Positions 1,713-36,602 of a DNA stretch of 36,751 nucleotides are shown here, in pieces. The position numbers and the translations under genes were made by a program. Numbering within the stretch: the stretch's first letter is position 1; every line of letters begins with the position of its first letter. The DNA is from an uncultured Oscillospiraceae bacterium (GTDB taxonomy: Bacteria; Bacillota; Clostridia; Oscillospirales; Oscillospiraceae): NCBI GenBank assembly GCA_905234575.1, contig CAJOIG010000001.1:1-36751 (forward strand), written 5' to 3'. The notes under the pieces were generated by a model, which ran no database searches, was not told the origin of the DNA, and was given only the letters and a program-made list of their open reading frames with translations.

Positions 1713-1746
1713 GACCCGCCATCCGACAATGGATGGCGGGTCTTTT
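1713..1746 (+). terminator. Intrinsic terminator of trpB2
   Basis: Perfect 12-bp stem GACCCGCCATCC / GGATGGCGGGTC with a 6-nt loop, followed by TTTT. Confidence 0.8.
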
Positions 1747-1749
1747 CGC

Positions 1750-1794
1750 TGGAGCTAGTGGCCAGACTCGAACTGGCGACCTGCTGATTACGAA
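1750..1794 (-). repeat. attL: displaced 3' portion of tRNA-Thr (CCA end, T-arm, variable loop, 3' anticodon stem and anticodon loop); not a complete tRNA
   Basis: 41 of 45 nt are identical to 36527-36571. The four differences are two compensatory T-stem pair swaps. Identity ends exactly after ...GATTACGAA (1794 / 36571). No 5' acceptor or D-arm follows. Confidence 0.85.
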
Positions 1795-1955: not shown

Positions 1956-3140
1956 TTATTTTGCAGGCTCGAAGGCAGCCAAAACTCCCGCGGCGAGCTC
2001 CGCCGGAGTGGCCTTCTGCAGGCTCGTGTAAATACGCAGTGTAATATCCGGGCTCGAATGCCCGGCCAGGTACTGGACGCGCTTGAGATCCATTCCCGAG
2101 AGCACCAGGCGCGTGACATAGGTATGCCGCAGGGTGTGCGGCGTCGGCATCGTGTCCAGGGTCACGGTCATTCTGTGCTTCGGGATCTTCTCCCCCAGGC
2201 GGCGCCCGGAGGCCGTACTGCGGGTGCGGATCGTCTCCCACCGGCGCCGGAACGCAGTGTAGCTTACCGGGCCGCCCTTGTCGTCACAATACACATACAG
2301 CTCCCGGAGCTTCTCGAGCTTCGCGGCCTCGCTGCCGCGGAGCTTTTTCATCTGCGCGGCACGGAGTCCGTGCAGATATTGCACGAGCTGCGGCGGGATC
2401 GGGATGTCCCGCCGGGCCGCCGCGGTCTTGAGCTCATCGCTCACCTCGGGCTTATGGGCATCCGGCCAGCGGCAGCCGCGCCGGACCTCGATGTAGGGCG
2501 CGTCCCCGTCCAGGTGGACGCAATCCCAGCGGAGGCCGCAGATCTCCCCGCGGCGCATCCCGGTATAGAGTCCCAGCATGACAAACGGCTCCACCTTCAG
2601 CCCGCGCACGGCCTCCAGCAGCGCCGCCTGCTGGGCGTCCGTGAGGGCCGCCTTCGGCGCCGGGGCCTCTCCCCCAGCCTTGATCTTGACGGACGGGTCC
2701 TTCGGGATCACGTCGGCGTCGGCGGCCGCGCTGAAAAGCTGCTTTAGAACCATCACCGTGTCCTTCTGGGTCCGGCGGCTGAGGTGCGCCCGGGTGGCCA
2801 GCACGTCCAGGAGATCGTCCTTTGTGATCTCCGCCATGGGCTTGCCGCCGATGACCGGGCAGATGATGTTATTGACCTGGTAGGCGTAGGACTTGCGCTG
2901 GCCCTCGCTCAAATGCGGAGCGCGCCGGGCGTACCAGGCCGCGGCGTACTCATAGACATACATTTCCTTCGGCGGCACGCTGCCGGCGACGAGCTCCGTC
3001 TTGCGCCGCTGGACCTTCTCGGCCAGTTCCGGGAGGGTTCTGCCGTAAACGTCCTCCGTCCGGCCGTCCGGGCGGGTGATCCGCTGCCGGTAATACTGCC
3101 CGCCGGGGCCGTATGCTTTTTTACGCTTTTTCGGCGGCAT
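1956..3140 (-). CDS. int: Tyrosine recombinase / phage integrase
   Basis: C-terminal catalytic signature (GMRRGEICGLRW ... HTLRHTYVTRLV ... LAGHSSPDITLRIYT). Adjacent to attL. I prefer the ATG at 3140 (RBS AAAGGA) over the GTG at 3170 used in the ORF track, because that GTG lies inside a 17-nt palindrome. Confidence 0.9.
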   Translation of the reverse strand: MPPKKRKKAYGPGGQYYRQRITRPDGRTEDVYGRTLPELAEKVQRRKTELVAGSVPPKEMYVYEYAAAWYARRAPHLSEGQRKSYAYQVNNIICPVIGGKPMAEITKDDLLDVLATRAHLSRRTQKDTVMVLKQLFSAAADADVIPKDPSVKIKAGGEAPAPKAALTDAQQAALLEAVRGLKVEPFVMLGLYTGMRRGEICGLRWDCVHLDGDAPYIEVRRGCRWPDAHKPEVSDELKTAAARRDIPIPPQLVQYLHGLRAAQMKKLRGSEAAKLEKLRELYVYCDDKGGPVSYTAFRRRWETIRTRSTASGRRLGEKIPKHRMTVTLDTMPTPHTLRHTYVTRLVLSGMDLKRVQYLAGHSSPDITLRIYTSLQKATPAELAAGVLAAFEPAK

Positions 3141-3153
3141 GGACGGTCCTTTC

Positions 3154-3170
3154 GTGCCCGATTCGGGCAC
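3154..3170. repeat. 17-nt palindrome GTGCCCGATTCGGGCAC (copy A), immediately 5' of the int RBS on the minus strand
   Basis: Exact second copy at 4988-5004. 7-bp stem with a 3-nt loop. Confidence 0.7.
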
Positions 3171-3176
3171 ATGATC

Positions 3177-3527
3177 TTATTGATGGCCGGTGGTAGTCTG
3201 CATGCCCGCGCGGATCGCGGCGACATCCAGGCAAAGCCCCATCAGCTGCGTCCGCTGGGTCTCCGTATCCTCCACGAGGGCGCCGAAGGCGTACAGGAGG
3301 AGCCCGTTCATCCAGCCGATCAGCGTGCCGGCCAGGGTGCACACCACCAACGGGACGGCGAAGTCCGCCGTGGAGCGCTCCATGATGACCCCCATCGCCA
3401 GGAGCTCATCGGTCTGGGCGCTGACCAGCCCGCCGACAACCAGGCCCGCCAGGAAGCCGACCAGGATGTCCAGGATCAGGATGATAGTCGCCAGGGTCTT
3501 CAGCTGCTTGCCGGGGTTCTTAAACAT
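3177..3527 (-). CDS. Small multi-pass membrane protein, unknown function (lysogeny-operon cargo)
   Basis: 116 aa with strong RBS AAGGAGG 7 nt upstream. Hydrophobic segments include TLATIILILDILVGFLAGLVVGGLV and LVVCTLAGTLIGWMNGLLLYAFGALV. High GC3. Confidence 0.7.
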   Translation of the reverse strand: MFKNPGKQLKTLATIILILDILVGFLAGLVVGGLVSAQTDELLAMGVIMERSTADFAVPLVVCTLAGTLIGWMNGLLLYAFGALVEDTETQRTQLMGLCLDVAAIRAGMQTTTGHQ

Positions 3528-3570
3528 GGGAGGACCTCCTTAGGGCTCTTTGGTTTGCCCGCGGGCATGT

Positions 3571-4002
3571 TTACAACCGCAGGCCGGGGGTTTTCTGCCC
3601 GGCGCGGAAGCGGCGGCCGCAGCTGAGGCAGGTGGAATAAACCGTCTGGCTGCCGATGCCGCCGGAGGCCATGCCGATGGCCGCGCCGATCGCAAGCCCG
3701 CCGAACGCTCCGAGCCAGAAGCCCGCGCCGCCCAGCACCAGCGCCCAGAACAGGCCGCGCCCGACTTTGTACCCGCGCTTGTTCGCCGAGAGGCTGGTGC
3801 CTCCGCAGAAGGGACAGCAGGCAATGCCCTGGGCTCGCTTTTTCTGCATATCTGCCTCCCGGCGTTTTCGGTCATCGAGCTGGCGCTGAACAGCCGGGCG
3901 CAGCAGCGTCTTGCCCTCTTTTTTCTTGACAATGACCGTCGGAATGATCATGAGGGCGAAAAAGCCCAACACGATCAGAACGGACAGCAAGCCGGCGTTC
4001 AT
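3571..4002 (-). CDS. Membrane protein with a split CxxC...CxxC zinc-ribbon and a glycine-zipper TM segment, unknown function
   Basis: 143 aa. N-terminal TM (LLSVLIVLGFFALMIIPTVIV), CPFCGG, a Gly-rich TM segment (LVLGGAGFWLGAFGGLAIGAAIGMASGG), then CLSCG. The start overlaps the upstream stop as ATGA (3999-4002). Confidence 0.7.
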   Translation of the reverse strand: MNAGLLSVLIVLGFFALMIIPTVIVKKKEGKTLLRPAVQRQLDDRKRREADMQKKRAQGIACCPFCGGTSLSANKRGYKVGRGLFWALVLGGAGFWLGAFGGLAIGAAIGMASGGIGSQTVYSTCLSCGRRFRAGQKTPGLRL

Positions 4003-4967
4003 GGCGCTGCGGCGCTGACGCCGACAATGGCCAGGAACTCGTCCTCGCCGATGATGCGAATTTGCGCGGCCCCGGATTCGTTCAGGGCATAGGCTTTCTC
4101 TTCCTTCGCGCTCATTCCGTCGTCGCCTACCAGCGCCATGTCCTGTCTGCCGACCACAAGTATGTTAGTTAGCTTACTTACGCTCGATCTGACTACAGCA
4201 CCGGCATTGACGGCCAACTGCGCGGCTTCTTTTCTCTCCATGCGCATCTCACCGGTGAAGACAATGGTCTTCCCGCATAAAGGGCCTCCCTCTGCGCCAT
4301 CGGCACAGGGTTGCAGATCGCTGACGCGGAAACTGGCGGTGGAGGGTATCTTCCAACTGCCGCCAATGGCCCGGATCGGCTTCAACTCCGAATAGACCCG
4401 CCTGTCGATGGGCTGCTTTGCCAGCAGCTCCCAGAGGGTCTCACAGCCCAGCGCCCGGATGCCCAGGACGGTAATATTCGCGCACATGGCGGCATCGGCC
4501 AGCGCGTCGTGATGCGTAAAGCCCTCAAGATTGATACCCATCTCTTTTGCGCAGTTATCCAGGGACAGACTGCCAGACACGAAATACCTGGCAATATCCA
4601 TGGAGTTGACATACACGAAGTCGGGAAACTCCGCCGCGTCCGAAGCCATACGCAGCACCGACATATCGAACTGGGGATTATGTGCCACGACGGGCACATG
4701 AGGGTCGAAGAACCGCGATATTTCCGGCAGCAGATCAGCAAAGGCAGGCGCGTTTTCCGTCTGCTTCGGCGTGATCCCGTGTATCTCTATGTTGTGCGCA
4801 TCATACACATTTTGGGGCGGCTGGATCAGCGAATAGAATTGATCCACGATATGCACGCCCGATACCGCAACGATGCCGACGGCGCAGGCGCTCGAAATGC
4901 GGGCTGTCGCCGTCTCGAAGTCTATGGCGATGAAATCAGGCGCTTGGTTCTCTGAGTTTTCAGTCAT
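3999..4967 (-). CDS. DnaQ/DEDDh-type 3'-5' exonuclease fused to a C-terminal BRCT domain
   Basis: 322 aa. Exo I is IAIDFETA, Exo II is VAHNPQFDMSVL, Exo III is HHDALADA. The C-terminal GKTIVFTG...AGAVVRSSVSKLTNILVVG...IRIIGEDEF is BRCT-like (LigA type). Confidence 0.8.
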   Translation of the reverse strand: MTENSENQAPDFIAIDFETATARISSACAVGIVAVSGVHIVDQFYSLIQPPQNVYDAHNIEIHGITPKQTENAPAFADLLPEISRFFDPHVPVVAHNPQFDMSVLRMASDAAEFPDFVYVNSMDIARYFVSGSLSLDNCAKEMGINLEGFTHHDALADAAMCANITVLGIRALGCETLWELLAKQPIDRRVYSELKPIRAIGGSWKIPSTASFRVSDLQPCADGAEGGPLCGKTIVFTGEMRMERKEAAQLAVNAGAVVRSSVSKLTNILVVGRQDMALVGDDGMSAKEEKAYALNESGAAQIRIIGEDEFLAIVGVSAAAP

Positions 4968-4987: not shown

Positions 4988-5004
4988 GTGCCCGATTCGG
5001 GCAC
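4988..5004. repeat. 17-nt palindrome GTGCCCGATTCGGGCAC (copy B), between the repressor stop and the exonuclease RBS
   Basis: Identical to 3154-3170. On the plus strand it is followed by a T7 run; on the minus (sense) strand it is preceded by an A-run. Confidence 0.7.
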
Positions 5005-5016
5005 CGTTTTTTTATA

Positions 5017-5352
5017 TTATGCGGATTGCGTCTCCGTCGCGGAGGACTCGTCTTGCCAGAAGGGGTCCAGGGCCAGGCGCACCATGTCCCGCGTGTGATC
5101 GTCGGCGCGGCGGTGCGCGATGATCAGGCTCTCCTCCTCCGGCGTGAGCTGGAGCCCGCCCGTCGGGCTGCGCCCCAAAAGGTAATCCGCGGTGCAATCA
5201 AAGATGTCACAGAGACGGCAAATAACAGAGGAGTCAATATTGTTGTGACCTGTTTCATAATGACCTATCGTCTGTCGGACTGAGTTCAAACGCTCTGCTA
5301 AATCATCCTGCGTCCAGCCCTTTGCCTGCCGGAGATCTTTAATTCGGTTCAT
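5017..5352 (-). CDS. XRE-family HTH repressor (CI-like)
   Basis: HTH sequence GWTQDDLAERLNSVRQTIGHYETGHNNIDSSVICRLCDIF. Divergent from the early operon. The ATG at 5352 with RBS GAGGTG is preferred over the GTG at 5361. Confidence 0.85.
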   Translation of the reverse strand: MNRIKDLRQAKGWTQDDLAERLNSVRQTIGHYETGHNNIDSSVICRLCDIFDCTADYLLGRSPTGGLQLTPEEESLIIAHRRADDHTRDMVRLALDPFWQDESSATETQSA

Positions 5353-5382
5353 TCCCCACACCTCTATATAGCTTTAGTGAAA

Positions 5383-5390
5383 ATTATACA
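5383..5390 (-). promoter_or_regulatory. Extended -10 element TGTATAAT of the leftward (repressor) promoter
   Basis: The minus strand reads GGGTTGACACTGTATAATTT about 30 nt upstream of the repressor ATG. Confidence 0.5.
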
Positions 5391-5416
5391 GTGTCAACCC
5401 TGCAATTTCATTAATT

Positions 5417-5502
5417 GCTATAAAACATAGCGGAAAAATGTTAATACACTTGACAAAGCTATTAATCGTAGCATATTATTAACTCGCGCTATGAAACGTA
5501 GC
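5417..5502. promoter_or_regulatory. Three operator-like 15-bp dyads GCTA-N7-TAGC (5417-5431, 5458-5472, 5488-5502)
   Basis: The dyads are GCTATAAAACATAGC, GCTATTAATCGTAGC and GCTATGAAACGTAGC, in the AT-rich divergent region. The middle site lies in the spacer of the rightward promoter. Confidence 0.6.
5450..5479 (+). promoter_or_regulatory. Rightward early promoter (TTGACA 5450-5455, TATTAT 5474-5479)
   Basis: Consensus -35, an 18-nt spacer, and a near-consensus -10, facing the early operon. Confidence 0.6.
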
Positions 5503-5628
5503 GTTTCTTCTCCCCGCCTTCCGAGGGTCCCTTGACGCCATTCGGGGTCCGGGCGCCCGCCGTCTTTTTCATACCCTTCTCCGGCGAGGCGCCCAGGCGA
5601 GGCGGGAGACAGACAGGAGGCGCGCACC

Positions 5629-7751: not shown

Positions 7752-8048
7752 ATGTACGAAGGAAAAAAGTGCGTCGTCCGCTGCAACGGCGCCGGAGTCT
7801 TTTTCGCAGAGATCAAGGAGTGGAAGCCGGAAACCGGCGTGGCCACGCTGAGGAACGCGCGGCGCCTGTGGCGCTGGTATGGTGCCAGCGAGTGCCTGCA
7901 GCTGGCTCAGGAGGGAACGAAGGAACCCCGTAACTGTAAGTTTACCCTTTTCGTGCCGGAGCTGACAGTGGCGAATGTGCTGGAGGTCACGCCCTGCACT
8001 GAGGAGGCGTCGAGCAGTCTGGAGAATGTCCCGGTATGGAAGAGCTGA
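7752..8048 (+). CDS. Hypothetical phage protein (98 aa)
   Basis: RBS AAAGGAAAAA, GC3 bias. Confidence 0.65.
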   Translation: MYEGKKCVVRCNGAGVFFAEIKEWKPETGVATLRNARRLWRWYGASECLQLAQEGTKEPRNCKFTLFVPELTVANVLEVTPCTEEASSSLENVPVWKS

Positions 8049-8770
8049 TTAAACAATTTCTCGGCATAAGCTCCGGCTACGGCTACGGCTACGGCTCCGG
8101 CGACGGCTCCGGCGACGGCTCCGGCGACGGCTACGGCGACGGCTACGGCGACGGCTCCGGCTACGGCGACGGCTCCGGCTACGGCTACGGCGACGGCTCC
8201 GGCTACGGCTACGGCGACGGCTCCGGCTACGGCTCCGGCTACGGCGACGGCGACGGCGTCGGCGACGGCGACGGCTACGGCGTCGGCGACGGCTCCGGCT
8301 TAATCACATATAACGGTCAACCGGTTTACCTGGTGGACGGATTGCCGACGCTGATCGACCGAGTCCGCCTCGGCGTGGCAAAGGGCAGGATCGTCAACGG
8401 CGATCTGACGCTCAGACCCTGCTACATCGTCAAGCAGGACGATACGTTCGCCCACGGCGAGACGCTGCATGCGGCCCGGGAGGCACTGCTTGAAAAGCTG
8501 TTTGACGATATGCCGGAGGAGGACCGGATCGCCGCATTTGTCGAGGCGCATAAGCCGGGGACGACTTATCCAAACACGGATTTCTTCTCCTGGCACCACC
8601 GGCTCACCGGCTCCTGCGAGATGGGCCGCCGGCAGTTTGCCAGGGATCACGAGATCGACGTGGAGCATGGCAGCATGACGCCGGAGGAATTTATCCGTCT
8701 TACGGAGACAAGCTACGGCTCGGCCACGATCCGCATGCTGAAGGCGCATTATGAGGTAGGGCAGCCATGA
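8036..8770 (+). CDS. Protein with an N-terminal (Gly-Tyr/Ser/Asp/Val)n low-complexity region and a conserved-looking C-terminal globular domain
   Basis: 244 aa. Residues ~13-88 are G-X dipeptide repeats. The C-terminal half is non-repetitive (FFSWHHRLTGSCEMGRRQFARDHEIDVEHGSMTPEEFIRL). Confidence 0.7.
   Translation: MEELIKQFLGISSGYGYGYGSGDGSGDGSGDGYGDGYGDGSGYGDGSGYGYGDGSGYGYGDGSGYGSGYGDGDGVGDGDGYGVGDGSGLITYNGQPVYLVDGLPTLIDRVRLGVAKGRIVNGDLTLRPCYIVKQDDTFAHGETLHAAREALLEKLFDDMPEEDRIAAFVEAHKPGTTYPNTDFFSWHHRLTGSCEMGRRQFARDHEIDVEHGSMTPEEFIRLTETSYGSATIRMLKAHYEVGQP
8071..8300 (+). repeat. In-frame hexanucleotide repeat tract (GGCTAC / GGCTCC / GGCGAC / GGCGTC units)
   Basis: About 230 bp of strict GGC-NNC periodicity, visible directly in the sequence. 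Confidence 0.9.
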
Positions 8771-8891: not shown

Positions 8892-9632
8892 ATGGGCGTG
8901 ATCCGCGTGGAGCACAACGCAAACTACACCACCATGGCCAACTACCACCTCCGGGACCGGCGGCTGAGCCTGCGGGCCGTGGGGCTCATGAGCAAGATGC
9001 TGAGCTTCCCGGAGGACTGGGACTACACCGTCAAGGGCCTGGCCTCGATCTGCGTCGAGGGCCGGGACGCGGTGCGGAAGGCGCTCATGGAGCTGGAGGC
9101 CGCGGGCTACCTTGTGCGGGAGCAGACCCGCGGGAGCCACGGCAGCTTCGCCGGGAACGACTACACCCTGTACGAGGCACCGACCGCCGCCGAAAATCCA
9201 CCGTTGACTGAAAACCCGTCAGCGGGTGAGCCGTCAGCGGCGGAACCGTCAGCGGGAAAACCGTTGACGGAGAATCCGCCACAAATAAATAACTTACTTA
9301 ACCAAAGTACGAAAGGAACAAAACATGCGCCGGCGAGCTCGACGAGCTGGGAGCCGGAGATGTTTGAGCGCTTCTGGCGGGCGTACCCCAAGAAGGGCCG
9401 CAAGGACAAGGCCACCGCCCGGCGCGAGTGGGACAGGCTGAAACCAGACCGCGAACTCATGCGCGTCATGAGTGCTGCGCTCGACCGAGCCAAGACCTCG
9501 GACGAATGGCAGCGCGGCATCGGCATCCCCTACGCCTGCCGGTGGCTCCGAAACCGCCGCTGGGAGGACGAGCCCGACACGGCGCCGGAGGCCGACGCCC
9601 CCGAGGAAAGGCTGGTGGGCGAGCAATGGTAG
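8892..9632 (+). CDS. Replication initiator / replisome organizer (N-terminal winged-helix domain, DnaD-like context)
   Basis: The N-terminus (NYTTMANYHLRDRRLSLRAVGLMSKMLSFPEDWDYTVKGLASI...LMELEAAGYLVRE) is typical of Firmicutes phage/ICE initiators. It sits directly upstream of, and overlaps, the DnaB-like helicase gene. RBS AAGGAGG. Confidence 0.7.
   Translation: MGVIRVEHNANYTTMANYHLRDRRLSLRAVGLMSKMLSFPEDWDYTVKGLASICVEGRDAVRKALMELEAAGYLVREQTRGSHGSFAGNDYTLYEAPTAAENPPLTENPSAGEPSAAEPSAGKPLTENPPQINNLLNQSTKGTKHAPASSTSWEPEMFERFWRAYPKKGRKDKATARREWDRLKPDRELMRVMSAALDRAKTSDEWQRGIGIPYACRWLRNRRWEDEPDTAPEADAPEERLVGEQW
9201..9275 (+). repeat. Five 15-nt-phased iterons (CCGTTGAC / CCGTCAGCGG cores at 9201, 9216, 9231, 9246, 9261) followed by an AT-rich stretch (9281-9325): candidate phage origin inside the initiator gene
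   Basis: Exact 15-nt register. The three central cores are identical, and the outer two share CCGTTGAC. Confidence 0.55.
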
Positions 9633-11026
9633 CGGACTACGCAAGCCTGGAAAAGAACCTCCCGGAGGTGAGCGTCATCGGCTCCATGCTGATCGACGAC
9701 CGCACCGTCCCCATGCTCATGCAGGAGCTGACGCCGGAGCATTTTACCGACGGCGAGCTCCGGCACGTCTTCGAGGCCATCCGGGAGATCTTCCAGCGCC
9801 ACGGCAACGTGGACGTCACGACCGTGCTCGGGCAGCTCGGGGACGAGGGTTACGCGCCGAAGCTCATCGCCGTCATGGATCTGACGCCCACGGCGGCCAA
9901 CTGCATGGAGTACGCCCGGATCCTTCGGGACCGGCGCACGCTGCGGCAGATCCAGGGGGCCTGCATGGAGATCCTCAGCGAGGGCACGGACCTCGACCGG
10001 GCAAAGGAGCTGCTCGCCGGGGCCGCGGGGCTGCTGGCCGAGCGGCCGAACGACCGGGGCCGGAGCTATGTGGAGCTCCTCGCGGACCTGCTGACCCGGC
10101 AGGCCGACAAGACCCCGCCCGACTATCTCGACTGGGGCATCGAGGCCCTCAACAAAAAGCTGCACGCCGGGCCCGGGCGCTTTATCCTCCTGGGCGCGGA
10201 CAGCTCCGTCGGCAAGACGGCGCTGGCCCTGCAGTTTGCCCTCGCCATCGCCAAGGCGGGCAAATCCGTCGGCTTTTTTTCCTACGAGACCACCCTGGCC
10301 GACGCCGCGGACCGTCTGGCCGCCAACGACGCGGACGTCAGCCTGAGCCGGATCAAGGCGAAGGGGCTGGAGCGCGGGGAGATCGAGCGGATCATCCAGG
10401 CGGCGACGGACTTCGGCGAGAAAAACCTGTACATCCAGGAGAGCGCCCGGTACACCGTCGACCAGCTCCGGGCCAAGACCATCGCCAAGGGATTCCGGGT
10501 CATCGTGATCGATTACGTCCAGCTCATCCCCACGCGGCGCCGGGAGCGCTACGACGCGGTGACGGAGATCTCCATCGGCCTGCACGCCATGGCCCAGGAG
10601 CTCGGCGTCACGGTCATCGGCCTCTCGCAGGTCACGGTCCCGGAGACTGACAAAAAGGGCCGCCGGCGCTACATCACCAAGGAGGACCTTCGGGAGAGCC
10701 GGCAGCTCAAGCAGGACGCGGACATCATCCTCCTGCTGGACCTCGTGGAACCGACCGACCCCTACGGCAACCGGATCCTGCAGGTGGCAAAAAACCGGGA
10801 CGGTCCCCTGGGGCGCGTCGTTCTCCAGTTCCGGCCCTCGCGGATGCGGTTTGTGTACGTCGATCCGGTGGAGAGCGAGGCGGACAAAAAGCGCCGGGAG
10901 AAGCTCGCCGCCATGGACGCAAAGCGCGAGGCCGAGCGGCAGGCCCGGGCCGACGCCGCCGACTGGAAGGAGCGGCAGGGCGATATGTTCCAGGACATCG
11001 ACGACAAGGAGGACATCCCGTTTTGA
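9626..11026 (+). CDS. dnaB: Replicative DNA helicase (DnaB family)
   Basis: DnaB N-domain-like start (EVSVIGSMLIDDRTVP...) and Walker A GADSSVGKT. The ATG at 9626 overlaps the upstream stop (ATGGTAG). The N-terminal extension in the ORF track is rejected. Confidence 0.85.
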   Translation: MVADYASLEKNLPEVSVIGSMLIDDRTVPMLMQELTPEHFTDGELRHVFEAIREIFQRHGNVDVTTVLGQLGDEGYAPKLIAVMDLTPTAANCMEYARILRDRRTLRQIQGACMEILSEGTDLDRAKELLAGAAGLLAERPNDRGRSYVELLADLLTRQADKTPPDYLDWGIEALNKKLHAGPGRFILLGADSSVGKTALALQFALAIAKAGKSVGFFSYETTLADAADRLAANDADVSLSRIKAKGLERGEIERIIQAATDFGEKNLYIQESARYTVDQLRAKTIAKGFRVIVIDYVQLIPTRRRERYDAVTEISIGLHAMAQELGVTVIGLSQVTVPETDKKGRRRYITKEDLRESRQLKQDADIILLLDLVEPTDPYGNRILQVAKNRDGPLGRVVLQFRPSRMRFVYVDPVESEADKKRREKLAAMDAKREAERQARADAADWKERQGDMFQDIDDKEDIPF

Positions 11027-11273: not shown

Positions 11274-11286
11274 TATCATGAGAACA
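11274..11286 (+). promoter_or_regulatory. Motif TATCATGAGAACA (copy 4 of 4, one mismatch), overlapping the parA start codon
   Basis: Same 13-mer family as the copies at 6186, 6616 and 8831. Confidence 0.4.
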
Positions 11287-12033
11287 ACAGCGATCCTCAA
11301 TCTCAAGGGCGGCGTGGCGAAGACCACCACGTGCGTCAACATGGCGGCGATCCTCGCCAAGGACTACAAAAAGCGCGTCCTGGTGGTGGACGCGGACAGC
11401 CAGGCAAACACCACCGAGTTCCTGGGCGGCCAGCCCGGATACTCCACCATGGGTGACCTGCTCCGGCGGATCGACCTCAATCCGATCATCCAGCCCTCCT
11501 CCCTGCCGGGCGTTTCGCTTCTCGCGGCGGACGAGAGCCTCATGGATCTCGACCTCTCCGCGGTCAAGAGCAAGACGGCGCACGTCGAGGATCTCCGGCG
11601 GCTGCTGGTCAGTTTCGCGGGCTCCTACGACCACTGCCTCATCGACTGCCCGCCGGCCTTCAGCGCGGCGAGCGCGGCGGCGCTCCTCGCGGCGGATGAC
11701 GTCGTCATCCCCATCAAGCTCGACGCCTTTTCCCTCCGCGGCATGGCAAACCTCATCCGGCAGGTCCGCAACATGCAGGAGATCAACCCCGTCCTGCGGG
11801 TGGCCGGGCTCCTGCCCGTGATGGTCTACCGCTCCGACCGCATCAAGGCGGCGCTGGAGGTGCTCTATGCTTCCGACTTCCCCATCTTCCCTGTTATCCA
11901 CCGATCCGACAAGGTCGATGACATGACTTTTGCCCAGAAGCCGCTGGTGGAGAGCTCGCCGAAGTCGGCGGCCTGCGTCAGCTACCGCCGGTTCGTCCGG
12001 GCGTATCTGGAGGGAGGCGCGGGAAATGGCTGA
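11278..12033 (+). CDS. parA: ParA/Soj-family partition ATPase
   Basis: Deviant Walker A LKGGVAKTT, then VLVVDADSQANTT. RBS AAGGAGG. Confidence 0.85.
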   Translation: MRTTAILNLKGGVAKTTTCVNMAAILAKDYKKRVLVVDADSQANTTEFLGGQPGYSTMGDLLRRIDLNPIIQPSSLPGVSLLAADESLMDLDLSAVKSKTAHVEDLRRLLVSFAGSYDHCLIDCPPAFSAASAAALLAADDVVIPIKLDAFSLRGMANLIRQVRNMQEINPVLRVAGLLPVMVYRSDRIKAALEVLYASDFPIFPVIHRSDKVDDMTFAQKPLVESSPKSAACVSYRRFVRAYLEGGAGNG

Positions 12034-13297
12034 ATTTGACCTTTCTGCGCTCATGAAGGACGTGTCCAAATCGGGTACCGGCCGGGAGCAGATCCGATAC
12101 ATCGCCTGGGAAAACATCCGCCCGGCGGAGAACAACGGCTACAGCATGGACGGCTTGCCGGATCTCGCCCGGAGCATCGAGCTCGTGGGGCTGCAGCAGC
12201 CGCTGCGGGTGCGGCCCCTGGCGGACGACTCCGTCGAGGTGATCTCGGGACACCGGCGCCGGGCGGCCATCGGGCTGCTGATCGACCAGGGCTCCAAGCG
12301 CTTTGACGGCGGCGTGCCCTGCATCGTGGATACCTCGGCCGCGTCGCCGGCCCTGCGGGAGCTGCAGCTCCTCCTCGGCAACGCGGACAACCGCAAGCTC
12401 ACGAGCGCCGACGAGGCCCAGCAGGCCGAGCGCATATCCGACTGCATCCGCCGCCTGGAGGACGAGGGGTACGAGTTCCCCGGCCGGCACCGGGACTGGG
12501 TGAGCAAGCTCTCCGGCATGAGCCGGTCGAAGCTCGCCCGGCTGAAGGTCATCCGGGACAGGCTGGCCCCCGGCCTCCGCGAGCAGTACGAAGAAGGGGA
12601 GCTCAATGAATCCGTAGCCTATGAGTTTTCCAAATTCGACCACGCGAAACAGGACCAAATATGGGATGATCTCGCAGAGGCCAACCTCCCATTTACCGTT
12701 GAAAACGTCCAGCGGGCAGCGGGCCGGCTTCCGAAAGAGGCCCCGCCGCCGACGCCACAGACGAAAAAACTGCCGGCCGACTCCACCGTCTGGCTGAAGC
12801 CAAAGGACGCATACCGGCGGATAACATCCATTCGGACGGCTGCCTCTGCCCTGGGCATCACGCCGGAGAAGTCGATCCAGGAGCAGATCGAAGCCCTTAT
12901 GCGCGATTGCCGGTCCCATCGCGGCGCCGGCGGCCCCGGCTACAATGTCGAGTTGCGACCGCCATGTCATGTGATCCTGGATGAATACACGCGCTATGAG
13001 CGGCGATATACGATCAAACAGTTTCTTGAGCTTGTCGCGGAGGTGTGGATTGAAAACGATCTGAACGCGTTCCAGGCGGATACCGTCCGGACGCCCGCGC
13101 TTACCGATGTGTGGTATGACACCGAGGAAGGCGATTTTCCGGACGAAGATATTGATCTTGCGGACATCATCGCCTGGGGCGACGCCGGACTTAAGACCGT
13201 ACCGGGTACGAGCTTCCTACGCGCATACCAGGCATTCCCCGGCCGCTATCGCTGGTGGGCCGTGGTCGACGGCCCGGAGGAGGACGAGGACGAATGA
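12026..13297 (+). CDS. parB: ParB-like protein (ParB/Srx N-terminal domain) with a long uncharacterised C-terminal extension
   Basis: Motifs LARSIELVGLQQPLRVRP and VISGHRRRAA. The start overlaps the parA stop (ATGGCTGA). Confidence 0.75.
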   Translation: MAEFDLSALMKDVSKSGTGREQIRYIAWENIRPAENNGYSMDGLPDLARSIELVGLQQPLRVRPLADDSVEVISGHRRRAAIGLLIDQGSKRFDGGVPCIVDTSAASPALRELQLLLGNADNRKLTSADEAQQAERISDCIRRLEDEGYEFPGRHRDWVSKLSGMSRSKLARLKVIRDRLAPGLREQYEEGELNESVAYEFSKFDHAKQDQIWDDLAEANLPFTVENVQRAAGRLPKEAPPPTPQTKKLPADSTVWLKPKDAYRRITSIRTAASALGITPEKSIQEQIEALMRDCRSHRGAGGPGYNVELRPPCHVILDEYTRYERRYTIKQFLELVAEVWIENDLNAFQADTVRTPALTDVWYDTEEGDFPDEDIDLADIIAWGDAGLKTVPGTSFLRAYQAFPGRYRWWAVVDGPEEDEDE

Positions 13298-15293: not shown

Positions 15294-15333
15294 GGCCACG
15301 GTCTGACACATCCAAGGAGGTTAGACCGTGGCC
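15294..15333 (+). promoter_or_regulatory. Perfect 11-bp inverted repeat GGCCACGGTCT-N18-AGACCGTGGCC enclosing the RBS and start codon of the HUH Rep-like gene
   Basis: Arms at 15294-15304 and 15323-15333. The loop contains AAGGAGG, and the 3' arm contains the GTG start (15328). Confidence 0.8.
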
Positions 15334-16161
15334 AAAACACTGAAACGAATCGACGCCGGCGGGATCCAGGTGGCCGCGCTGTATGACCGGGTCCGCCCGC
15401 GGGACACGCCGCCGCAGCGGGCGGCAAAGCACCGGGCCAGCACCGACGCCCAGCGCCGGATGAATCAGATCTACAGCTACCAAAAGCTCGAGCTCATGCT
15501 GGCCGTGAATTTCCCGACGCCCGGCAGCGGCCTCGTGGTGACGCTGACTCACGACGACCAGCACATGCCGAAGGACCGCAGGGAGGCACAGCTCCGCTTT
15601 AAGTATTTCCTGGCCAAGCTGCGGGCGGCGCGCAAGGCCGCGGGCCTGCCCGAGCCGGTGGTGTTCTGGGCGCCGGAGATCCTTACATCCTCATCCGGAC
15701 GCTGGCACCAGCACGTCGTGCTGGACAACACCGGCCGGGATTATGAAATGATCCGCAGCTGTTGGATCTACGGCAGTGAGATCGAGATCCGCAAGCTGGG
15801 AAAACCGGAGCCGGGCGAGGATCCTCCGGAGTGGTGGCAGCCGGATGCGGAAGAGCCGGACAACTACTTCAAGGCCGTGGCCAGGTACATGACCAAGGAG
15901 CTGCGCGAGTGCCAGGAGTATACATCAAAGCCCGGTCTGCACGGCTGGAGCTGCACGCGGAACGCGAAGCGCCCGGAGGTGGACACCATGACCGTCCCGG
16001 ACGATTACGAGCTGACGCCGCCCGACGGCAGCACCGTCCTGCTGGACGAGGGGCGGCGCACCGAGTGGGCGAGCTGGCGGGTGATCAAGTACCGGTTCTC
16101 CGGCGAGGCCTTTGCCCCGGCTCCCAGGGCCAGACGCCGCAGACCGAGGCGGCGGCGCTGA
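15328..16161 (+). CDS. HUH-superfamily Rep-like protein (rolling-circle initiator / relaxase-like, single-Tyr type)
   Basis: Motif I is LVVTLTHDD, motif II is GRWHQHVVLD, motif III is VARYMTKEL (YxxK), in canonical order and spacing. GTG start with RBS AAGGAGG. Confidence 0.6.
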   Translation: MAKTLKRIDAGGIQVAALYDRVRPRDTPPQRAAKHRASTDAQRRMNQIYSYQKLELMLAVNFPTPGSGLVVTLTHDDQHMPKDRREAQLRFKYFLAKLRAARKAAGLPEPVVFWAPEILTSSSGRWHQHVVLDNTGRDYEMIRSCWIYGSEIEIRKLGKPEPGEDPPEWWQPDAEEPDNYFKAVARYMTKELRECQEYTSKPGLHGWSCTRNAKRPEVDTMTVPDDYELTPPDGSTVLLDEGRRTEWASWRVIKYRFSGEAFAPAPRARRRRPRRRR

Positions 16162-18368: not shown

Positions 18369-19412
18369 ATGTACGGGAATGTTTTCTATTTTTCCAACAT
18401 CAACGCCATCGGGGGGATCGAGACGATGTTCTGGATGCTTGCACGAAAGTACGGCGACCGAGACATCACGGTGCTCTACCGGACGGCGGATCCGGCGCAG
18501 CTGCGCCGGATGCGTGAGCTGGTGCGCTGCGTCCGTTTTACCGGGCAGCGTATCCGCTGCCGCAAGGCGTTTTTCAACTACACCATTGACATCATAGATC
18601 ATGTGGATGCCGACGAGTATAACCTGATCCTCCACGCCGACTACAGTGCGTCGGTTTACTCTTACCTGAAACCGCCGGTGCACGAGAAGATCGACCACTA
18701 TCTGGCGGTGAGCCAGGTGGCGGCAGATGGTTTCAAGGCTTTGACCGGGATCGAGCCGGCGGTGATCTACAACCCCTTCATCGTAGACAAGCCGCGGAAG
18801 GTGCTGCGGCTGATCAGCGCCACGCGGCTGACGCCAGAGAAGGGCAAGGCCAGGATGGAACTGCTGGCCCAGGCTCTGGACGCCGCGGGCATCCCCTGGC
18901 GCTGGGACGTGTACACCAACGACCGGAGCGGCTTTCGGCATCCCAACATCACGCTGCGGGCGCCCCGGCTGGGCATCCTGGACGACATCGCCGACGCCGA
19001 CTACCTGGTGCAGCTCTCCGACAGTGAGGCGTACAGCTACAGCATCGTGGAGGCCCTGGCTGTCGGCACACCGGTGATCGTCACCGCGATCCCGGTATGC
19101 GAGGAAATGGGCATCCAGGACGGCGTTAACGCCTTTGTGCTGCCCTTCGACATGAGCGAGATCCCGGTGGCGCAGATCTACAAGGGCCTCAAGCGCTTCA
19201 AGTACACGCCGCGCCCGGACCGCTGGCCGGAGCTGCTGGCGCCAGGTGCGAGCAGCTGGCCGGAGGAAAAGGCCCAGGGCGTCACGGCGGAGGCCGCCGT
19301 GAAATTCCGCGACCTGAAGGCGGAGCTCATCCGGGAGAAGGGCGACCGCTTCCCGTGCTCCTGGGAGCGCGCGCTGGACCTGGAGGCCAAGGGCCTGGCC
19401 CGGCTGGTCTGA
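18369..19412 (+). CDS. GT-B fold glycosyltransferase (GT4-like, EX7E motif)
   Basis: N-terminal INAIGGIETMFWMLARKY and C-terminal SDSEAYSYSIVEALAVGTPVIV (E-x7-E). RBS AAGGAG. Confidence 0.7.
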   Translation: MYGNVFYFSNINAIGGIETMFWMLARKYGDRDITVLYRTADPAQLRRMRELVRCVRFTGQRIRCRKAFFNYTIDIIDHVDADEYNLILHADYSASVYSYLKPPVHEKIDHYLAVSQVAADGFKALTGIEPAVIYNPFIVDKPRKVLRLISATRLTPEKGKARMELLAQALDAAGIPWRWDVYTNDRSGFRHPNITLRAPRLGILDDIADADYLVQLSDSEAYSYSIVEALAVGTPVIVTAIPVCEEMGIQDGVNAFVLPFDMSEIPVAQIYKGLKRFKYTPRPDRWPELLAPGASSWPEEKAQGVTAEAAVKFRDLKAELIREKGDRFPCSWERALDLEAKGLARLV

Positions 19413-21214: not shown

Positions 21215-21231
21215 GTGTCCTACTAGGACAC
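21215..21231. repeat. 17-nt palindrome GTGTCCTACTAGGACAC (copy C), between the terL stop and the next RBS
   Basis: Near-identical copy at 26381-26397. Shares the architecture GTGYCC-N5-GGRCAC with 3154 and 4988. Confidence 0.7.
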
Positions 21232-26049: not shown

Positions 26050-26379
26050 ATGGCGGGGAAATCGGCAGCGGCTTTGGCCGCCGAGGCTGAGGAGGCAGCG
26101 GCTGCCGCCCTCGAAGCCTGCAAGACGTACATGCACGTGGACGGGGACGAGGAGGACGACCTGATCCGGGACGAGCTCATGCCTGCCGCGAAGGCGTACC
26201 TGGCCGGCGCCGGCATCCCGGAGCCGGAGGAGGACAGCCGCCTGTACACCCTGGCGGTCCACTCCCTGACCCTGCATTACTTCGACCACCGGGACGCGGT
26301 CGGCGGGGAGGCGCCTCTCCCCACCGGCCTGCGGCCCATCCTGAACCAGCTCAAGCACAGCGGCAGCGCACCGCTGTGA
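26050..26379 (+). CDS. Head-tail connector (gp6-like)
   Basis: Features YMHVDGDEEDDLIRDELMPAAKAYL...YTLAVHSLTLHYFDHRD. Confidence 0.75.
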   Translation: MAGKSAAALAAEAEEAAAAALEACKTYMHVDGDEEDDLIRDELMPAAKAYLAGAGIPEPEEDSRLYTLAVHSLTLHYFDHRDAVGGEAPLPTGLRPILNQLKHSGSAPL

Positions 26380-26380
26380 C

Positions 26381-26397
26381 GTGTCCTACCAGGACAC
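26381..26397. repeat. 17-nt palindrome GTGTCCTACCAGGACAC (copy D), between the connector stop and the major tail protein RBS
   Basis: 16 of 17 nt identical to 21215-21231. Confidence 0.7.
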
Positions 26398-36491: not shown

Positions 36492-36523
36492 GCCTGCAAT
36501 CCCTTGTGATTGCAGGCTTTTTT
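36492..36523 (+). terminator. Intrinsic terminator at the prophage right end
   Basis: 10-bp stem GCCTGCAATC / GATTGCAGGC with a 6-nt loop, followed by T6. Its 3' arm and tail resemble the trpB2 terminator next to attL. Confidence 0.75.
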
Positions 36524-36526
36524 CGC

Positions 36527-36571
36527 TGGAGCTAGTGGGGAGACTCGAACTCCCGACCTGCTGATTACGAA
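36527..36571 (-). repeat. attR (part of the intact tRNA-Thr)
   Basis: Direct repeat of 1750-1794. The 18-bp perfect core is at 36554-36571. Confidence 0.85.
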
Positions 36572-36602
36572 TCAGCTGCTCTACCGACTGAGCTACACTA
36601 GC
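36527..36602 (-). tRNA. tRNA-Thr (anticodon CGU), CCA encoded
   Basis: The reverse complement folds by hand. Acceptor GCTAGTG/CACTAGC. D-arm GCTC-AGTCGGTA-GAGC. Anticodon arm GCTGA-TTCGTAA-TCAGC. Variable loop AGGTC. T-arm GGGAG-TTCGAGT-CTCCC. Discriminator T, then CCA. Confidence 0.9.

What the first reader, a model, noticed from the sequence alone, without database searches (positions are those of the whole stretch)
3177..4967. Cargo cluster between repressor and integrase: DEDDh exonuclease-BRCT fusion coupled to two small membrane proteins (candidate prophage defence/exclusion system)
Seen in sequence: three minus-strand genes sit inside the lysogeny operon, in the order cI-like repressor, exonuclease-BRCT, zinc-ribbon/glycine-zipper membrane protein, multi-pass membrane protein, integrase. 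The exonuclease carries all three DEDDh motifs (DFET, HNPQFD, HHDALAD) and a LigA-type BRCT module. Its stop overlaps the start of the next gene (ATGA at 3999-4002). The third gene has a strong RBS. Identical 17-nt palindromes bracket the cluster at 4988 and 3154. Established knowledge: genes co-transcribed with the repressor are expressed in lysogens, and the int-repressor interval is a recurrent hotspot for prophage defence and superinfection-exclusion cargo. Inference: a nuclease with a DNA-end or phospho-binding BRCT module, translationally coupled to membrane proteins, does not match any named defence system I recognise. It could be an injection-site-coupled nuclease or an abortive-infection module. 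This is my top candidate for an undescribed system.
Basis: partly seen in the sequence, partly recalled or inferred. Interest (0 to 1): 0.75.

Follow-up and report, generated by a model that had tools for sequence, protein, structure and literature searches.

The report
Independent prophage cargo genes, not system
The three genes between the prophage repressor and integrase are real, but related phages carry them separately, so they are most likely independent cargo (a widespread exonuclease-BRCT gene already catalogued as an untested defence candidate, plus two small membrane proteins) rather than a new three-part defence system.

Summary
Every sequence observation holds: the gene order, DEDDh motifs, LigA-type BRCT, ATGA overlap, strong RBS and two identical 17-nt palindromes. 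The element is a 34.8-kb prophage in tRNA-Thr.

The three-gene system does not hold up.
- Phages with the same integrase (63-70% identity) and repressor carry the exonuclease alone, the exonuclease plus a different Cys-rich partner, or the zinc-ribbon protein alone.
- Of 168 other exonuclease loci, only one has a zinc-ribbon neighbour.
- The second membrane protein is an orphan.

The exonuclease-BRCT is a large, already annotated family. It sits next to the integrase in S. aureus phi12/phiN315/phiNM3, in pneumococcal prophages and in a streptococcal satellite. Both of its domains match the two ends of PADLOC's untested single-gene candidate PDC-S48.

My best reading, which is inferred, is a stand-alone exonuclease directed at 5'-phosphate DNA ends or nicks that protects the lysogen. 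The two membrane proteins would be separate exclusion-type cargo.

The palindromes are not cassette brackets. They belong to a multi-copy family (GTGYCC-N5-GGRCAC, four copies plus a variant) that tracks the phage's ParB-like gene, so they are probably parS-type sites.

Interest is modest.

The parts
1738..1794 (.). attL: displaced 3' fragment of tRNA-Thr; direct repeat of 36515-36571
   Evidence: 57-nt direct repeat, 89% identical, 34,777 nt apart. An intact tRNA-Thr(cgt) lies at 36527-36602.
1956..3143 (-). Tyrosine integrase, last gene of the leftward lysogeny operon
   Evidence: Pfam Phage_integrase 2.9e-21 plus Phage_int_M. phrog_1 3e-55.
3154..3170 (.). 17-nt palindrome GTGCCCGATTCGGGCAC, 10 nt upstream of the int ATG (3143)
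   Evidence: Folds as a 7-bp hairpin that leaves the SD free. Member of the GTGYCC-N5-GGRCAC family.
3177..3527 (-). Orphan small membrane protein (116 aa, two hydrophobic segments read from its sequence), own GGAGG RBS
   Evidence: ORF and RBS. GC3 0.91. No homologue other than itself among 5.8 billion proteins. No Pfam, PHROG or PADLOC hit.
3571..4002 (-). Membrane protein: N-terminal TM helix, charged helix, then a zinc ribbon split by a glycine-zipper hairpin. Its start overlaps the exo stop (ATGA) and it has no SD of its own.
   Evidence: phrog_2546 1.2e-17, function unknown. The family has 1338 cluster representatives. AF2 secondary structure fits this layout, but pLDDT is only 66.
3999..4967 (-). 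DEDDh 3'-5' exonuclease fused to a LigA/RFC1-type BRCT (322 aa)
4988..5004 (.). Second copy of the palindrome, between the repressor stop and the exo RBS
   Evidence: On the + strand it is followed by a T-run and so scores as terminator-like. The same position (after the repressor gene) is occupied by a family member in L162, L166-L171, L081 and L083-L087.
5017..5361 (-). Xre/cI-type HTH repressor (114 aa, no S24 domain), first gene of the leftward operon
   Evidence: HTH_3 4.3e-13. phrog_8 and phrog_3.
5383..5479 (.). Divergent promoter-like sites: leftward 5411-5383, rightward 5450-5479
   Evidence: Consensus scan scoring 10/12 and 11/12. No promoter-like site was found between the repressor and exo.
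11278..12033 (+). ParA-type ATPase
   Evidence: AAA_31 3.2e-38, CbiA 1.3e-19. KGGVAKTT Walker A motif.
12026..13297 (+). ParB-like protein; carries a variant palindrome GTGTCCAAATCGGGTAC at 12062-12078
   Evidence: ParB_N 7.1e-5, below the Pfam cut-off. Spo0J 1vz0 E 0.0043. Palindrome.
21215..21231 (.). Palindrome family copy GTGTCCTACTAGGACAC, between the stop of ORF 19414-21213 and the next RBS
26381..26397 (.). Palindrome family copy GTGTCCTACCAGGACAC, at a junction between two + strand ORFs (26050-26379 and the ATG at 26423), 5' of a GGAGG RBS
36515..36602 (-). attR repeat and intact tRNA-Thr(cgt)

Best explanation
The repressor-integrase interval of this tRNA-Thr-integrated prophage is a cargo slot that holds three independently inherited genes. 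It is not one system.

(1) Exonuclease-BRCT. This is a stand-alone enzyme. The DEDDh domain is intact and removes nucleotides from 3' ends. The C-terminal BRCT is of the LigA/RFC1 class, which binds 5'-phosphorylated DNA ends or nicks. The gene is a recurrent lysogeny-module gene of temperate phages and satellites of Bacillota, and it has the two-domain architecture of PADLOC's untested single-gene candidate PDC-S48. I infer the following mechanism. It is made from the repressor operon. It docks on 5'-phosphate ends or nicks of incoming linear DNA, for example annealed cos ends before ligation, and chews back the adjacent 3' strand. This blocks circularisation or replication of a superinfecting phage. 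The integrated prophage and the chromosome offer no such ends.

(2) and (3) The two membrane proteins. The zinc-ribbon/Gly-zipper protein and the orphan membrane protein are separate morons of the Sie/Ltp kind: small membrane proteins in the lysogeny module. The ATGA overlap with the exonuclease is a by-product of mosaic assembly.

(4) The palindromes. The two identical palindromes are copies of a genome-wide site family that most likely serves the phage's ParB-like protein (parS-type sites).

What is shown and what is inferred. Shown: the anatomy, the independent distribution, the domain identities and the palindrome family. Inferred: expression in lysogens, the DNA-end substrate, any defence phenotype, and ParB binding.
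For: Independent assortment. Loci with the same integrase type (63-70% identity) and repressor type (48-61%) carry different cargo:
- exo only (L162);
- exo plus a CCSRY protein (L161);
- ZnR only (L167-L171).
A ZnR HMM hits 1 of 168 other exo loci. The third gene is an orphan. GC is 55-62% over exo against 64-69% over ZnR, the orphan gene and int, and GC3 is 0.70 against 0.83-0.91.

Exo is a lysogeny-module gene.
- In 80 IMG/VR loci it lies a median 2.4 kb from the contig end.
- A repressor homologue is upstream in 34 of 80 and an integrase is downstream in 42 of 80.
- It is annotated next to cI or int in S. aureus phi12, pneumococcal IPP43 and satellite Javan542.

Enzyme. Catalytic residues are invariant. 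The AF2 model has pLDDT 88.9. The exo domain resembles PolC-exo, DinG-exo, epsilon and ExoX, and the BRCT resembles LigA and RFC1 BRCT.

PDC-S48. The exo domain hits profile positions 5-167 and the BRCT hits 335-405 of 411. PDC families come from genes embedded in known defence systems and are untested.

Precedent for membrane exclusion genes in lysogeny modules. [quoted passage not shown]

Palindromes.
- The window has 4 exact-pattern copies plus 1 variant.
- All 8 exo-selected viral loci with a ParB-like gene carry the motif, against 4 of the 72 without one (Fisher p = 1.7e-8).
- A copy lies within the first 200 nt of the ParB-like gene in 14 of 20 loci.
- ParA and a ParB-like gene are present in the window.
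Against: - No expression or phenotype data exist.
- No paper describing this gene's function was found.
- The PDC-S48 match skips about 165 central profile positions, and PDC-S48 is itself unvalidated.
- Chromosomal homologues are common and solitary, with no conserved neighbours. This fits a housekeeping or repair role equally well.
- A palindrome or hairpin directly after the repressor gene could attenuate read-through, so lysogenic expression of the cargo is not assured.
- The ATGA overlap, the absence of an SD for ZnR, and one natural fusion protein (P0153: TM + DEDDh exonuclease + ZnR module) leave room for a local functional link between exo and ZnR.
- The ParB-palindrome association may partly reflect shared ancestry, since L083-L086 are near-identical.
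Confidence: 0.6

Rival explanations
1. The exonuclease is translationally coupled to the two membrane proteins, which tether or gate it at the membrane. Together they form an injection-site nuclease or an abortive-infection module.
For: - The ATGA overlap, with no separate SD for the ZnR gene.
- L082 also has exo and a ZnR homologue in one slot.
- One cluster representative, P0153, naturally fuses two TM helices, a DEDDh exonuclease and the ZnR/Gly-zipper module.
Against: - ZnR accompanies exo in 1 of 168 other exo loci.
- In L082 a CCSRY gene separates exo from ZnR.
- The closest exo relatives and the closest ZnR relatives occur without each other in otherwise similar phages.
- The third gene is an orphan.
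- Composition changes at the junction.
- The ZnR module is promiscuous. It sits C-terminal to many unrelated N-termini, and only 1 of 154 inspected family members carries an exonuclease.
Confidence: 0.1
2. The exonuclease-BRCT is a replication or repair accessory, not an immunity gene. It would be a DnaQ-like proofreader or an end-processing enzyme serving the phage or the host.
For: - It aligns end to end with NF004844/PRK06195 'DNA polymerase III subunit epsilon' (2.5e-60).
- phrog_192 is named 'DNA polymerase exonuclease subunit'.
- Mycobacterial DnaQ has the same exo+BRCT layout and acts as a clamp-bound proofreader (bioRxiv 10.1101/2023.10.24.563508).
- Many homologues are solitary chromosomal genes.
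Against: - 0 of 29 family members have a Q[Y/L]ALF/QLxLF-type clamp-binding motif at the C-terminus, where mycobacterial DnaQ carries it, and the two Q..L.F matches elsewhere are internal (the linker of the window protein was checked only by eye).
- The NF004844 score of 204.5 bits is below the 373-bit cut-off.
- The gene sits in the leftward lysogeny operon next to int, opposite the replication module (DnaB at 9428-11026), and this holds across distant phages and a satellite.
Confidence: 0.2
3. The exonuclease is part of the lysogeny switch. It would sense DNA damage or ends and trigger induction of a repressor that lacks a self-cleavage domain, taking the place ImmA holds in immR-immA-int operons.
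For: The gene immediately follows a short HTH repressor with no S24 domain in the window, L161, L162 and L174. That is the same position ImmA holds (position of ImmA from my own knowledge of ICEBs1).
Against: - In phi12 it follows a full HTH+Peptidase_S24 CI.
- In IPP43 it follows an ImmA/IrrE-type M78 protease. Both canonical induction devices therefore coexist with it.
- Related phages with the same repressor type lack it altogether (L167-L171).
Confidence: 0.07
4. The palindromes are RNA hairpins (mRNA stabilisers, processing sites or attenuators) or recombination scars at cassette boundaries, not protein-binding DNA sites.
For: - They lie 10-29 nt upstream of start codons, just 5' of the SD, in the window and in about 15 related junctions.
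- They fold as 7-bp hairpins, with -11 to -16 kcal/mol for the 46-61-nt segments folded.
- 42% of 168 copies precede an SD plus start codon, against 15% of random positions.
- In several loci they flank cargo.
Against: - The arm sequence GTGYCC/GGRCAC is conserved across phages whose neighbouring proteins share only 30-68% identity, while the centre varies.
- Copies also lie inside coding regions, always read as V-S/P-x-S/L-D/G-T, including the 5' end of ParB-like genes.
- L162 has rep-palindrome-exo-int with no second copy, which does not fit a simple flanked cassette.
Confidence: 0.3

Closest known systems
PADLOC PDC-S48 (model PDLC05027), an untested single-gene 'phage defence candidate'
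   Same: It has an N-terminal DEDDh exonuclease and a C-terminal BRCT. The window protein hits profile positions 5-167 (1.7e-31 for the whole protein), and its isolated BRCT hits 335-405 (7.6e-10). Its single-gene character agrees with the lack of conserved partners.
   Different: The window protein is 322 aa against a 411-position profile, and about 165 central positions are unmatched. It lies in a prophage lysogeny operon, whereas PDC families were defined from genes embedded in BREX, DISARM, RM type I or Hma loci. No PDC-S48 phenotype is published in the library searched.
Lysogeny-module 'exonuclease' of S. aureus phi12 (phi12p04), phiN315, phiNM3 and phi2958PVL, pneumococcal IPP/phiARI0923 prophages and satellite Javan542 (phrog_192)
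   Same: Full-length homologues at 27-34% identity over 94-97% of the protein. They hold the same position between the repressor region and the integrase.
   Different: They come from different hosts and are annotated variously as exonuclease, DNA ligase, DinG helicase or pol III epsilon. I found no functional study. Their neighbours differ: an S24 CI, an ImmA-like protease and a RelE-like gene.
NCBIfam NF004844 / PRK06195 and mycobacterial DnaQ (exo+BRCT proofreader)
   Same: End-to-end alignment 11-315 to 2-306 of 309, with the same two-domain layout.
   Different: The score is below the curated cut-off (204.5 against 373 bits). There is no C-terminal beta-clamp-binding motif. The context is a prophage, not a chromosome.
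Superinfection-exclusion membrane proteins of Gram-positive lysogeny modules (Ltp of TP-J34; Sie2009 of Tuc2009)
   Same: They are small membrane-associated proteins encoded in the lysogeny module between integrase and repressor. Ltp is expressed in the prophage and blocks DNA injection (PMC3952083; Sie2009 from my own knowledge).
   Different: There is no detectable sequence relationship. ZnR belongs to phrog_2546/3845, of unknown function, and the 116-aa protein is an orphan. Neither has a lipoprotein signal or any tested phenotype.
Dispersed centromere (parS/IR) sites of plasmid-prophage N15 and chromosomal parS sites inside parB
   Same: Short perfect palindromes are scattered singly through the genome, and the element encodes ParA and ParB. 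N15 has four separate IR sites such as GTGCGACCACGGTCGCAC (PMC7205306).
   Different: This prophage is integrated. The ParB_N hit is weak. Binding is untested. Two of the sites sit in the lysogeny operon directly 5' of RBSs.

Membership tests
   ZnR HMM: 1 of 168 other exo loci. ZnR homologues occur without exo in L166-L171. The third gene has no homologue.
   GC 55-62% over exo against 64-69% over the other two genes. GC3 0.70 against 0.83 and 0.91.
DEDDh (DnaQ-like) 3'-5' exonucleases | Exo I (DxE), Exo II (D) and Exo III (H-x4-D) catalytic residues | tested here: met
   D16, E18, D101 and D158 are invariant and H153 is at least 90% conserved in 29 sequences. RNase_T 2.1e-14. The fold matches epsilon, ExoX and PolC-exo.
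LigA/RFC1-class BRCT (DNA 5'-phosphate-binding) | Sequence similarity to the LigA and RFC1 BRCT domains, with the conserved TG...R...SVSK motif | tested here: met
   PDB profile hits to LigA (1l7b, 1dgs, 2owo) and to RFC1 BRCT (2k6g/2k7f). T238, G239, R245 and S264 are invariant. The role of these residues in phosphate binding is from my own knowledge and was not tested.
PADLOC PDC-S48 | N-terminal exonuclease and C-terminal BRCT both match the profile | tested here: met
   Profile positions 5-167 and 335-405 with the isolated BRCT.
PADLOC PDC-S48 | Near-full coverage of the 411-position profile, including the central region | tested here: not met
   Positions of about 170/210 to 334 are unmatched in the window protein and in all 10 relatives tested.
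PADLOC PDC-S48 | Confers phage resistance | not testable with these tools
   PDC systems are described as untested candidates. No paper mentions PDC-S48.
NCBIfam NF004844 (PRK06195, 'DNA polymerase III subunit epsilon') | Score above the curated cut-off (373 bits) | tested here: not met
   204.5 bits, although the alignment is end to end.
Clamp-bound DnaQ proofreader (mycobacterial DnaQ type) | C-terminal beta-clamp-binding motif Q[Y/L]ALF | tested here: not met
   Motif taken. It is absent from the C-termini of all 29 family members.
Sie/Ltp-type superinfection-exclusion proteins | Small membrane-associated protein encoded in the lysogeny module between repressor and integrase | tested here: met
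   Positions. Hydrophobic segments are visible in the translations. The AF2 model of ZnR has TM-like helices at 3-30, 80-94 and 101-114.
Sie/Ltp-type superinfection-exclusion proteins | Homology to a characterised Sie protein, or a demonstrated block of DNA injection | tested here: not met
   No Pfam, PHROG-function or PADLOC hit for either protein. The phenotype is not testable here.
ParABS partition/silencing module (for the palindromes) | ParA Walker-type ATPase next to a ParB with an N-terminal ParB/Srx domain | tested here: inconclusive
   ParA is clear (AAA_31 3.2e-38). ParB_N scores 23.2 bits against a cut-off of 26.3. Spo0J E 0.0043.
ParABS partition/silencing module (for the palindromes) | Palindromic sites genetically linked to the parB gene | tested here: met
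   All 8 ParB-like-positive exo loci carry the motif, against 4 of 72 without (p = 1.7e-8). A copy lies in the first 200 nt of the ParB-like gene in 14 of 20 loci. The window has a one-mismatch copy at 12062. Binding was not tested.

The most novel reading that the evidence does not exclude
The exonuclease-BRCT would be a genuine, lysogen-expressed exclusion nuclease that attacks 5'-phosphate ends or nicks of incoming DNA. In this particular phage it would have been newly wired, by translational coupling, to the zinc-ribbon/Gly-zipper membrane protein. The nuclease would then work at the membrane, which is the arrangement hard-wired in the natural fusion P0153 (TM + DEDDh exonuclease + ZnR module).
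Probability: 0.1. Interest if true: 0.65.

Novelty: new member of a known kind. Interest (0 to 1): 0.3.

Why it matters
As proposed, a new three-component, membrane-coupled nuclease defence would have been notable, but the evidence does not support it.

What remains useful is narrower:
- An uncharacterised exonuclease-BRCT gene sits in the lysogeny modules of medically important prophages (S. aureus phi12, phiN315 and phiNM3, and pneumococcal prophages) and of many gut Clostridia phages.
- It shares its architecture with an untested PADLOC candidate.
- In one clade it has a tightly linked Cys-rich partner.

A single cloning and phage-challenge experiment could settle whether this common gene is an immunity factor.

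The palindrome result also warns against reading repeated sequences that flank a cluster as cassette borders. Here they belong to a genome-wide, probably ParB-related site family.

Tried and rejected
Literature. Searches for BRCT + exonuclease + prophage/lysogeny, for PDC-S48, for DnaQ-like + BRCT + defence, and for BRCT + anti-phage found no description of this gene's function.

Induction-sensor idea (exonuclease replacing ImmA). Rejected, because the gene coexists with an S24 CI in phi12 and with an M78 ImmA-like protease in IPP43.

Clamp-bound proofreader. Weakened by the absent clamp-binding motif.

Palindrome as the repressor's operator. Rejected by eye: the switch regions of the window, L161 and L162 carry different repeats, while the palindrome is shared among them.

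Palindrome as a simple terminator. Only the 4988 copy has a T-run, and that is on the non-coding strand. 146 of 168 copies elsewhere have none.

Steps that gave nothing usable:
- The open-reading-frame test for coding versus intergenic palindromes was uninformative in this high-GC DNA.
- I did not run a fold search on the ZnR model because pLDDT was only 66.
- Chromosomal neighbourhoods of exo homologues showed no conserved partner beyond the genus level.
- The CCSRY partner has no Pfam or PADLOC hit, and only two of eight members gave weak PHROG hits, to phrog_14632 and phrog_4225.
Full report
OBSERVATION

The minus strand carries five genes:
- integrase 1956-3143 (ATG at 3143);
- a 116-aa membrane protein, 3177-3527;
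- a 143-aa zinc-ribbon/glycine-zipper protein, 3571-4002;
- a 322-aa exonuclease-BRCT, 3999-4967;
- a 114-aa HTH repressor, 5017-5361.

Pfam finds RNase_T (residues 13-165) and BRCT (229-313) in the exonuclease, Phage_integrase in the integrase and HTH_3 in the repressor. The stop of the exonuclease and the start of the next gene share ATGA at 3999-4002, and the third gene has GGAGG 7 nt before its ATG. GTGCCCGATTCGGGCAC is exact at 3154-3170 and 4988-5004, far above the shuffle expectation.

The setting is a 34.8-kb prophage. A 57-nt direct repeat at 1738-1794 / 36515-36571 overlaps tRNA-Thr 36527-36602. The rest of the window carries phage-type replication genes, namely DnaB, ParA and a ParB-like gene, followed by a run of large rightward ORFs that I did not annotate.

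IS THE TRIO A UNIT? NO

The exonuclease family is large: 1645 proteins at E <= 1e-10, mostly 310-320 aa with RNase_T+BRCT. I fetched 80 genome loci and 80 viral loci around relatives. I also fetched contigs for the closest relatives.

- The closest relative (68% identity, L162) is rep-exo-int with nothing in between.
- The next (63%, L161) is rep-exo-200-aa protein-int.
- A zinc-ribbon-module HMM searched against all ORFs of 169 exonuclease-bearing loci (the window among them) finds a neighbour only in the window and in L082.
- The closest relatives of the zinc-ribbon protein (51-61% identity) sit alone between a repressor and an integrase, with no exonuclease. They are found in L166-L171.

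Most of these loci share the window's integrase type (63-70% identity) and repressor type (48-61%). The one exception is L166, which has no integrase match and a 34% repressor match. They therefore form a natural presence/absence series in one phage lineage.

The third gene has no homologue other than itself in 5.8 billion proteins. Composition changes at the exo/ZnR junction: GC is 55-62% against 64-69%, and GC3 is 0.70 against 0.83-0.91.

WHAT THE EXONUCLEASE IS

Catalytic residues D16, E18, D101 and D158 are invariant and H153 is at least 90% conserved in 29 relatives. The AlphaFold model is confident, with pLDDT 88.9. By sequence and fold the N-domain resembles PolC-exo (2p1j), S. aureus DinG-exo (8zef), Pol III epsilon and ExoX. 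The C-domain resembles LigA and RFC1 BRCT. From my own knowledge, that BRCT class binds 5'-phosphorylated DNA ends or nicks. The TG...R...SVSK residues are conserved here.

The protein aligns end to end with NCBIfam NF004844/PRK06195 ('Pol III epsilon'), but below its cut-off. Mycobacterial DnaQ has the same layout and binds the clamp through a C-terminal Q[Y/L]ALF motif. None of the 29 family members has such a motif at its C-terminus.

PADLOC comparison

In PADLOC the protein hits PDC-S48 (1.7e-31, profile positions 5-167 of 411). The isolated BRCT region hits positions 335-405 of the same model. About 165 central positions are unmatched, and this is also true of ten relatives. PDC families are 145 untested candidates derived from genes embedded in known defence systems. 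The architecture is therefore already catalogued as a single-gene candidate. Strict membership is inconclusive.

WHERE IT LIVES

In IMG/VR loci the gene lies a median 2.4 kb from the contig end, and 55 of 80 are within 4 kb. A repressor homologue is upstream in 34 of 80 and an integrase is downstream in 42 of 80. Genome loci show neither pattern, with 0 and 2 of 80 respectively.

Annotated phages with full-length homologues include S. aureus phi12, phiN315, phiNM3, phi2958PVL and 47, pneumococcal IPP and phiARI0923 prophages, and the streptococcal satellite Javan542. The gene orders are:
- phi12: cI(S24)-exo-...-int;
- IPP43: cro/CI-...-ImmA-like-exo-int;
- Javan542: HTH-exo-int.

Chromosomal homologues are solitary, and their neighbours are conserved only within a genus. 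Because the gene coexists with both S24 repressors and ImmA-like proteases, it is unlikely to be an induction device.

A DIFFERENT, REAL PARTNER

Twenty-one loci carry this partner. They include every locus whose exonuclease is 45-63% identical to the window's and whose downstream gene is not cut off by a contig end. In them the gene is immediately adjacent to a 160-200-aa protein with an invariant C-terminal Cys motif (CCSRYxECSDAxxCxxPD...C.Y...G..FYG.N). The partner is downstream in 19 loci and upstream in L096 and L111. It has no Pfam or PADLOC match. Its only PHROG matches are weak ones, for two of eight members, to phrog_14632, a family that also covers an exonuclease domain, and to phrog_4225. 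The window and L162 lack this partner.

THE MEMBRANE PROTEINS

The zinc-ribbon protein belongs to phrog_2546/3845, of unknown function. Its C-terminal module (CxxC, Gly-zipper hairpin, CxxC) is found in about 1338 cluster representatives behind many different N-termini. One of these, P0153, is a fusion of two TM helices, a DEDDh exonuclease and this module. That is the only evidence that hints at a nuclease-membrane link, and it is 1 of 154 inspected. The AF2 model is low-confidence but shows the expected helices and ribbon strands.

Position and size make both proteins resemble Sie/Ltp-type exclusion cargo. There is no homology to support that.

THE PALINDROMES

The two copies belong to a family, GTGYCC-N5-GGRCAC.

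In the window:
- The window has four exact-pattern copies: 3154, 4988, 21215 and 26381. All are intergenic and lie 10-25 nt before a start codon.
- A one-mismatch copy at 12062 lies inside the 5' end of a ParB-like gene.

In related phages:
- A copy follows the repressor gene in at least 14 related loci.
- Another often precedes int.
- The exact 17-mer occurs in at least 120 IMG/VR stretches, often several per contig.
- In coding regions it is read as V-P-E/D-S-G-T.

Link to ParB:
- The window encodes ParA (11278-12033) and a ParB-like protein (12026-13297; ParB_N weak, Spo0J E 0.004).
- Among exo-selected viral loci, all 8 with a ParB-like gene carry the motif, against 4 of the 72 without one (Fisher p = 1.7e-8).
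- In 14 of 20 loci a copy lies within the first 200 nt of the ParB-like gene.

Dispersed single palindromic centromere sites are known from prophage N15. I therefore read the palindromes as parS-type sites, with confidence of about 0.55. RNA hairpins are the main alternative, since they fold well and leave the SD free. Either way, they are not borders of this cargo cluster.

MECHANISM AND VERDICT

Shown:
- three real genes;
- an intact DEDDh+BRCT enzyme;
- independent distribution of the three genes;
- a recurrent lysogeny-module position for the exonuclease;
- a multi-copy palindrome family.

Inferred:
- The exonuclease is made from the repressor operon. No promoter-like site lies between rep and exo.
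- It targets 5'-phosphate ends or nicks of incoming linear DNA and resects the 3' strand, excluding superinfecting phage.
- The membrane proteins act separately as exclusion-type cargo.

I put about 0.6 on this overall picture. That figure mixes higher confidence for 'not a three-gene system' with about 0.35-0.4 for the defence function itself. It leaves 0.1 for the coupled-system model and 0.2 for a replication or repair role.

Novelty: a new member of a known, already catalogued but untested kind. Interest is modest.

Noticed in passing
L161 7071-7673; L082 1537-2040; L083 8951-9481; L172 5939-6526; L174 5929-6417; L096 1726-2253; L111 7450-7974 (absent from the window): A 160-200-aa protein with an invariant C-terminal five-Cys motif (CCSRYxECSDAxxCxxPD...C.Y) is always adjacent to the exonuclease-BRCT in 21 loci, in either gene order. 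It has no Pfam or PADLOC hit and only weak PHROG hits in two of eight members. It looks like the genuine two-gene partner of this exonuclease clade.
   Followed up: partly
window 3154, 4988, 21215, 26381, and variant at 12062; ParA 11278-12033; ParB-like 12026-13297: An integrated prophage encodes ParA and a ParB-like protein and carries a dispersed palindrome family, GTGYCC-N5-GGRCAC. The family is statistically tied to the ParB-like gene in related phages, and two copies sit directly upstream of exo and int. It may act as parS-type sites with a silencing or regulatory role.
   Followed up: partly
protein P0153: A natural fusion of two N-terminal TM helices, a DEDDh exonuclease and the zinc-ribbon/Gly-zipper module, which would be a membrane-anchored DnaQ-like nuclease. 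Its genomic context could not be looked up.
   Followed up: partly
window 8036-8770 (+): A 244-aa ORF whose N-terminal third is a long run of (G-Y/D/S-G-D/S) repeats. These are encoded by 12-nt tandem repeats at 8022-8345, and a globular C-terminal domain follows.
   Followed up: no
window 1738-1794 vs 36515-36571: The two att copies differ by paired changes in the tRNA T-arm: GGCCAGACTCGAACTGGC against GGGGAGACTCGAACTCCC. The phage-borne and bacterial tRNA 3' halves are therefore distinct but both can form the stem.
   Followed up: no
window 4988-5019 (+ strand): The palindrome after the repressor gene is followed by TTTTTTT on the + strand. It therefore scores as an intrinsic terminator facing into the repressor gene from the exo side, and it could block antisense transcription.
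   Followed up: no
window 5415-5505: The divergent switch region contains three GCTAT-N5-(A/G)TAGC-like palindromes (seen by eye). These are probably the repressor's operators. They differ from the repeats in the switch regions of L161 and L162, which suggests different immunity specificities on a shared backbone.
   Followed up: no
window 18369-19412 (+) and 15328-16161 (+): A glycosyltransferase-like gene (Glycos_transf_1/4) lies in the stretch downstream of the replication genes. A weak REP_ORF2-G2P-like replication protein also lies inside the prophage.
   Followed up: no
L172 4358-4909; L164 2320-2583 and 2596-2976; L133 8949-9356: Other occupants of the same repressor-integrase slot in related phages are a DUF4352/DUF5067 protein, a gene annotated 'plasmid stabilization system protein', an ImmA-like M78 protease and a DUF4429 protein. 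This shows how variable the slot is.
   Followed up: partly
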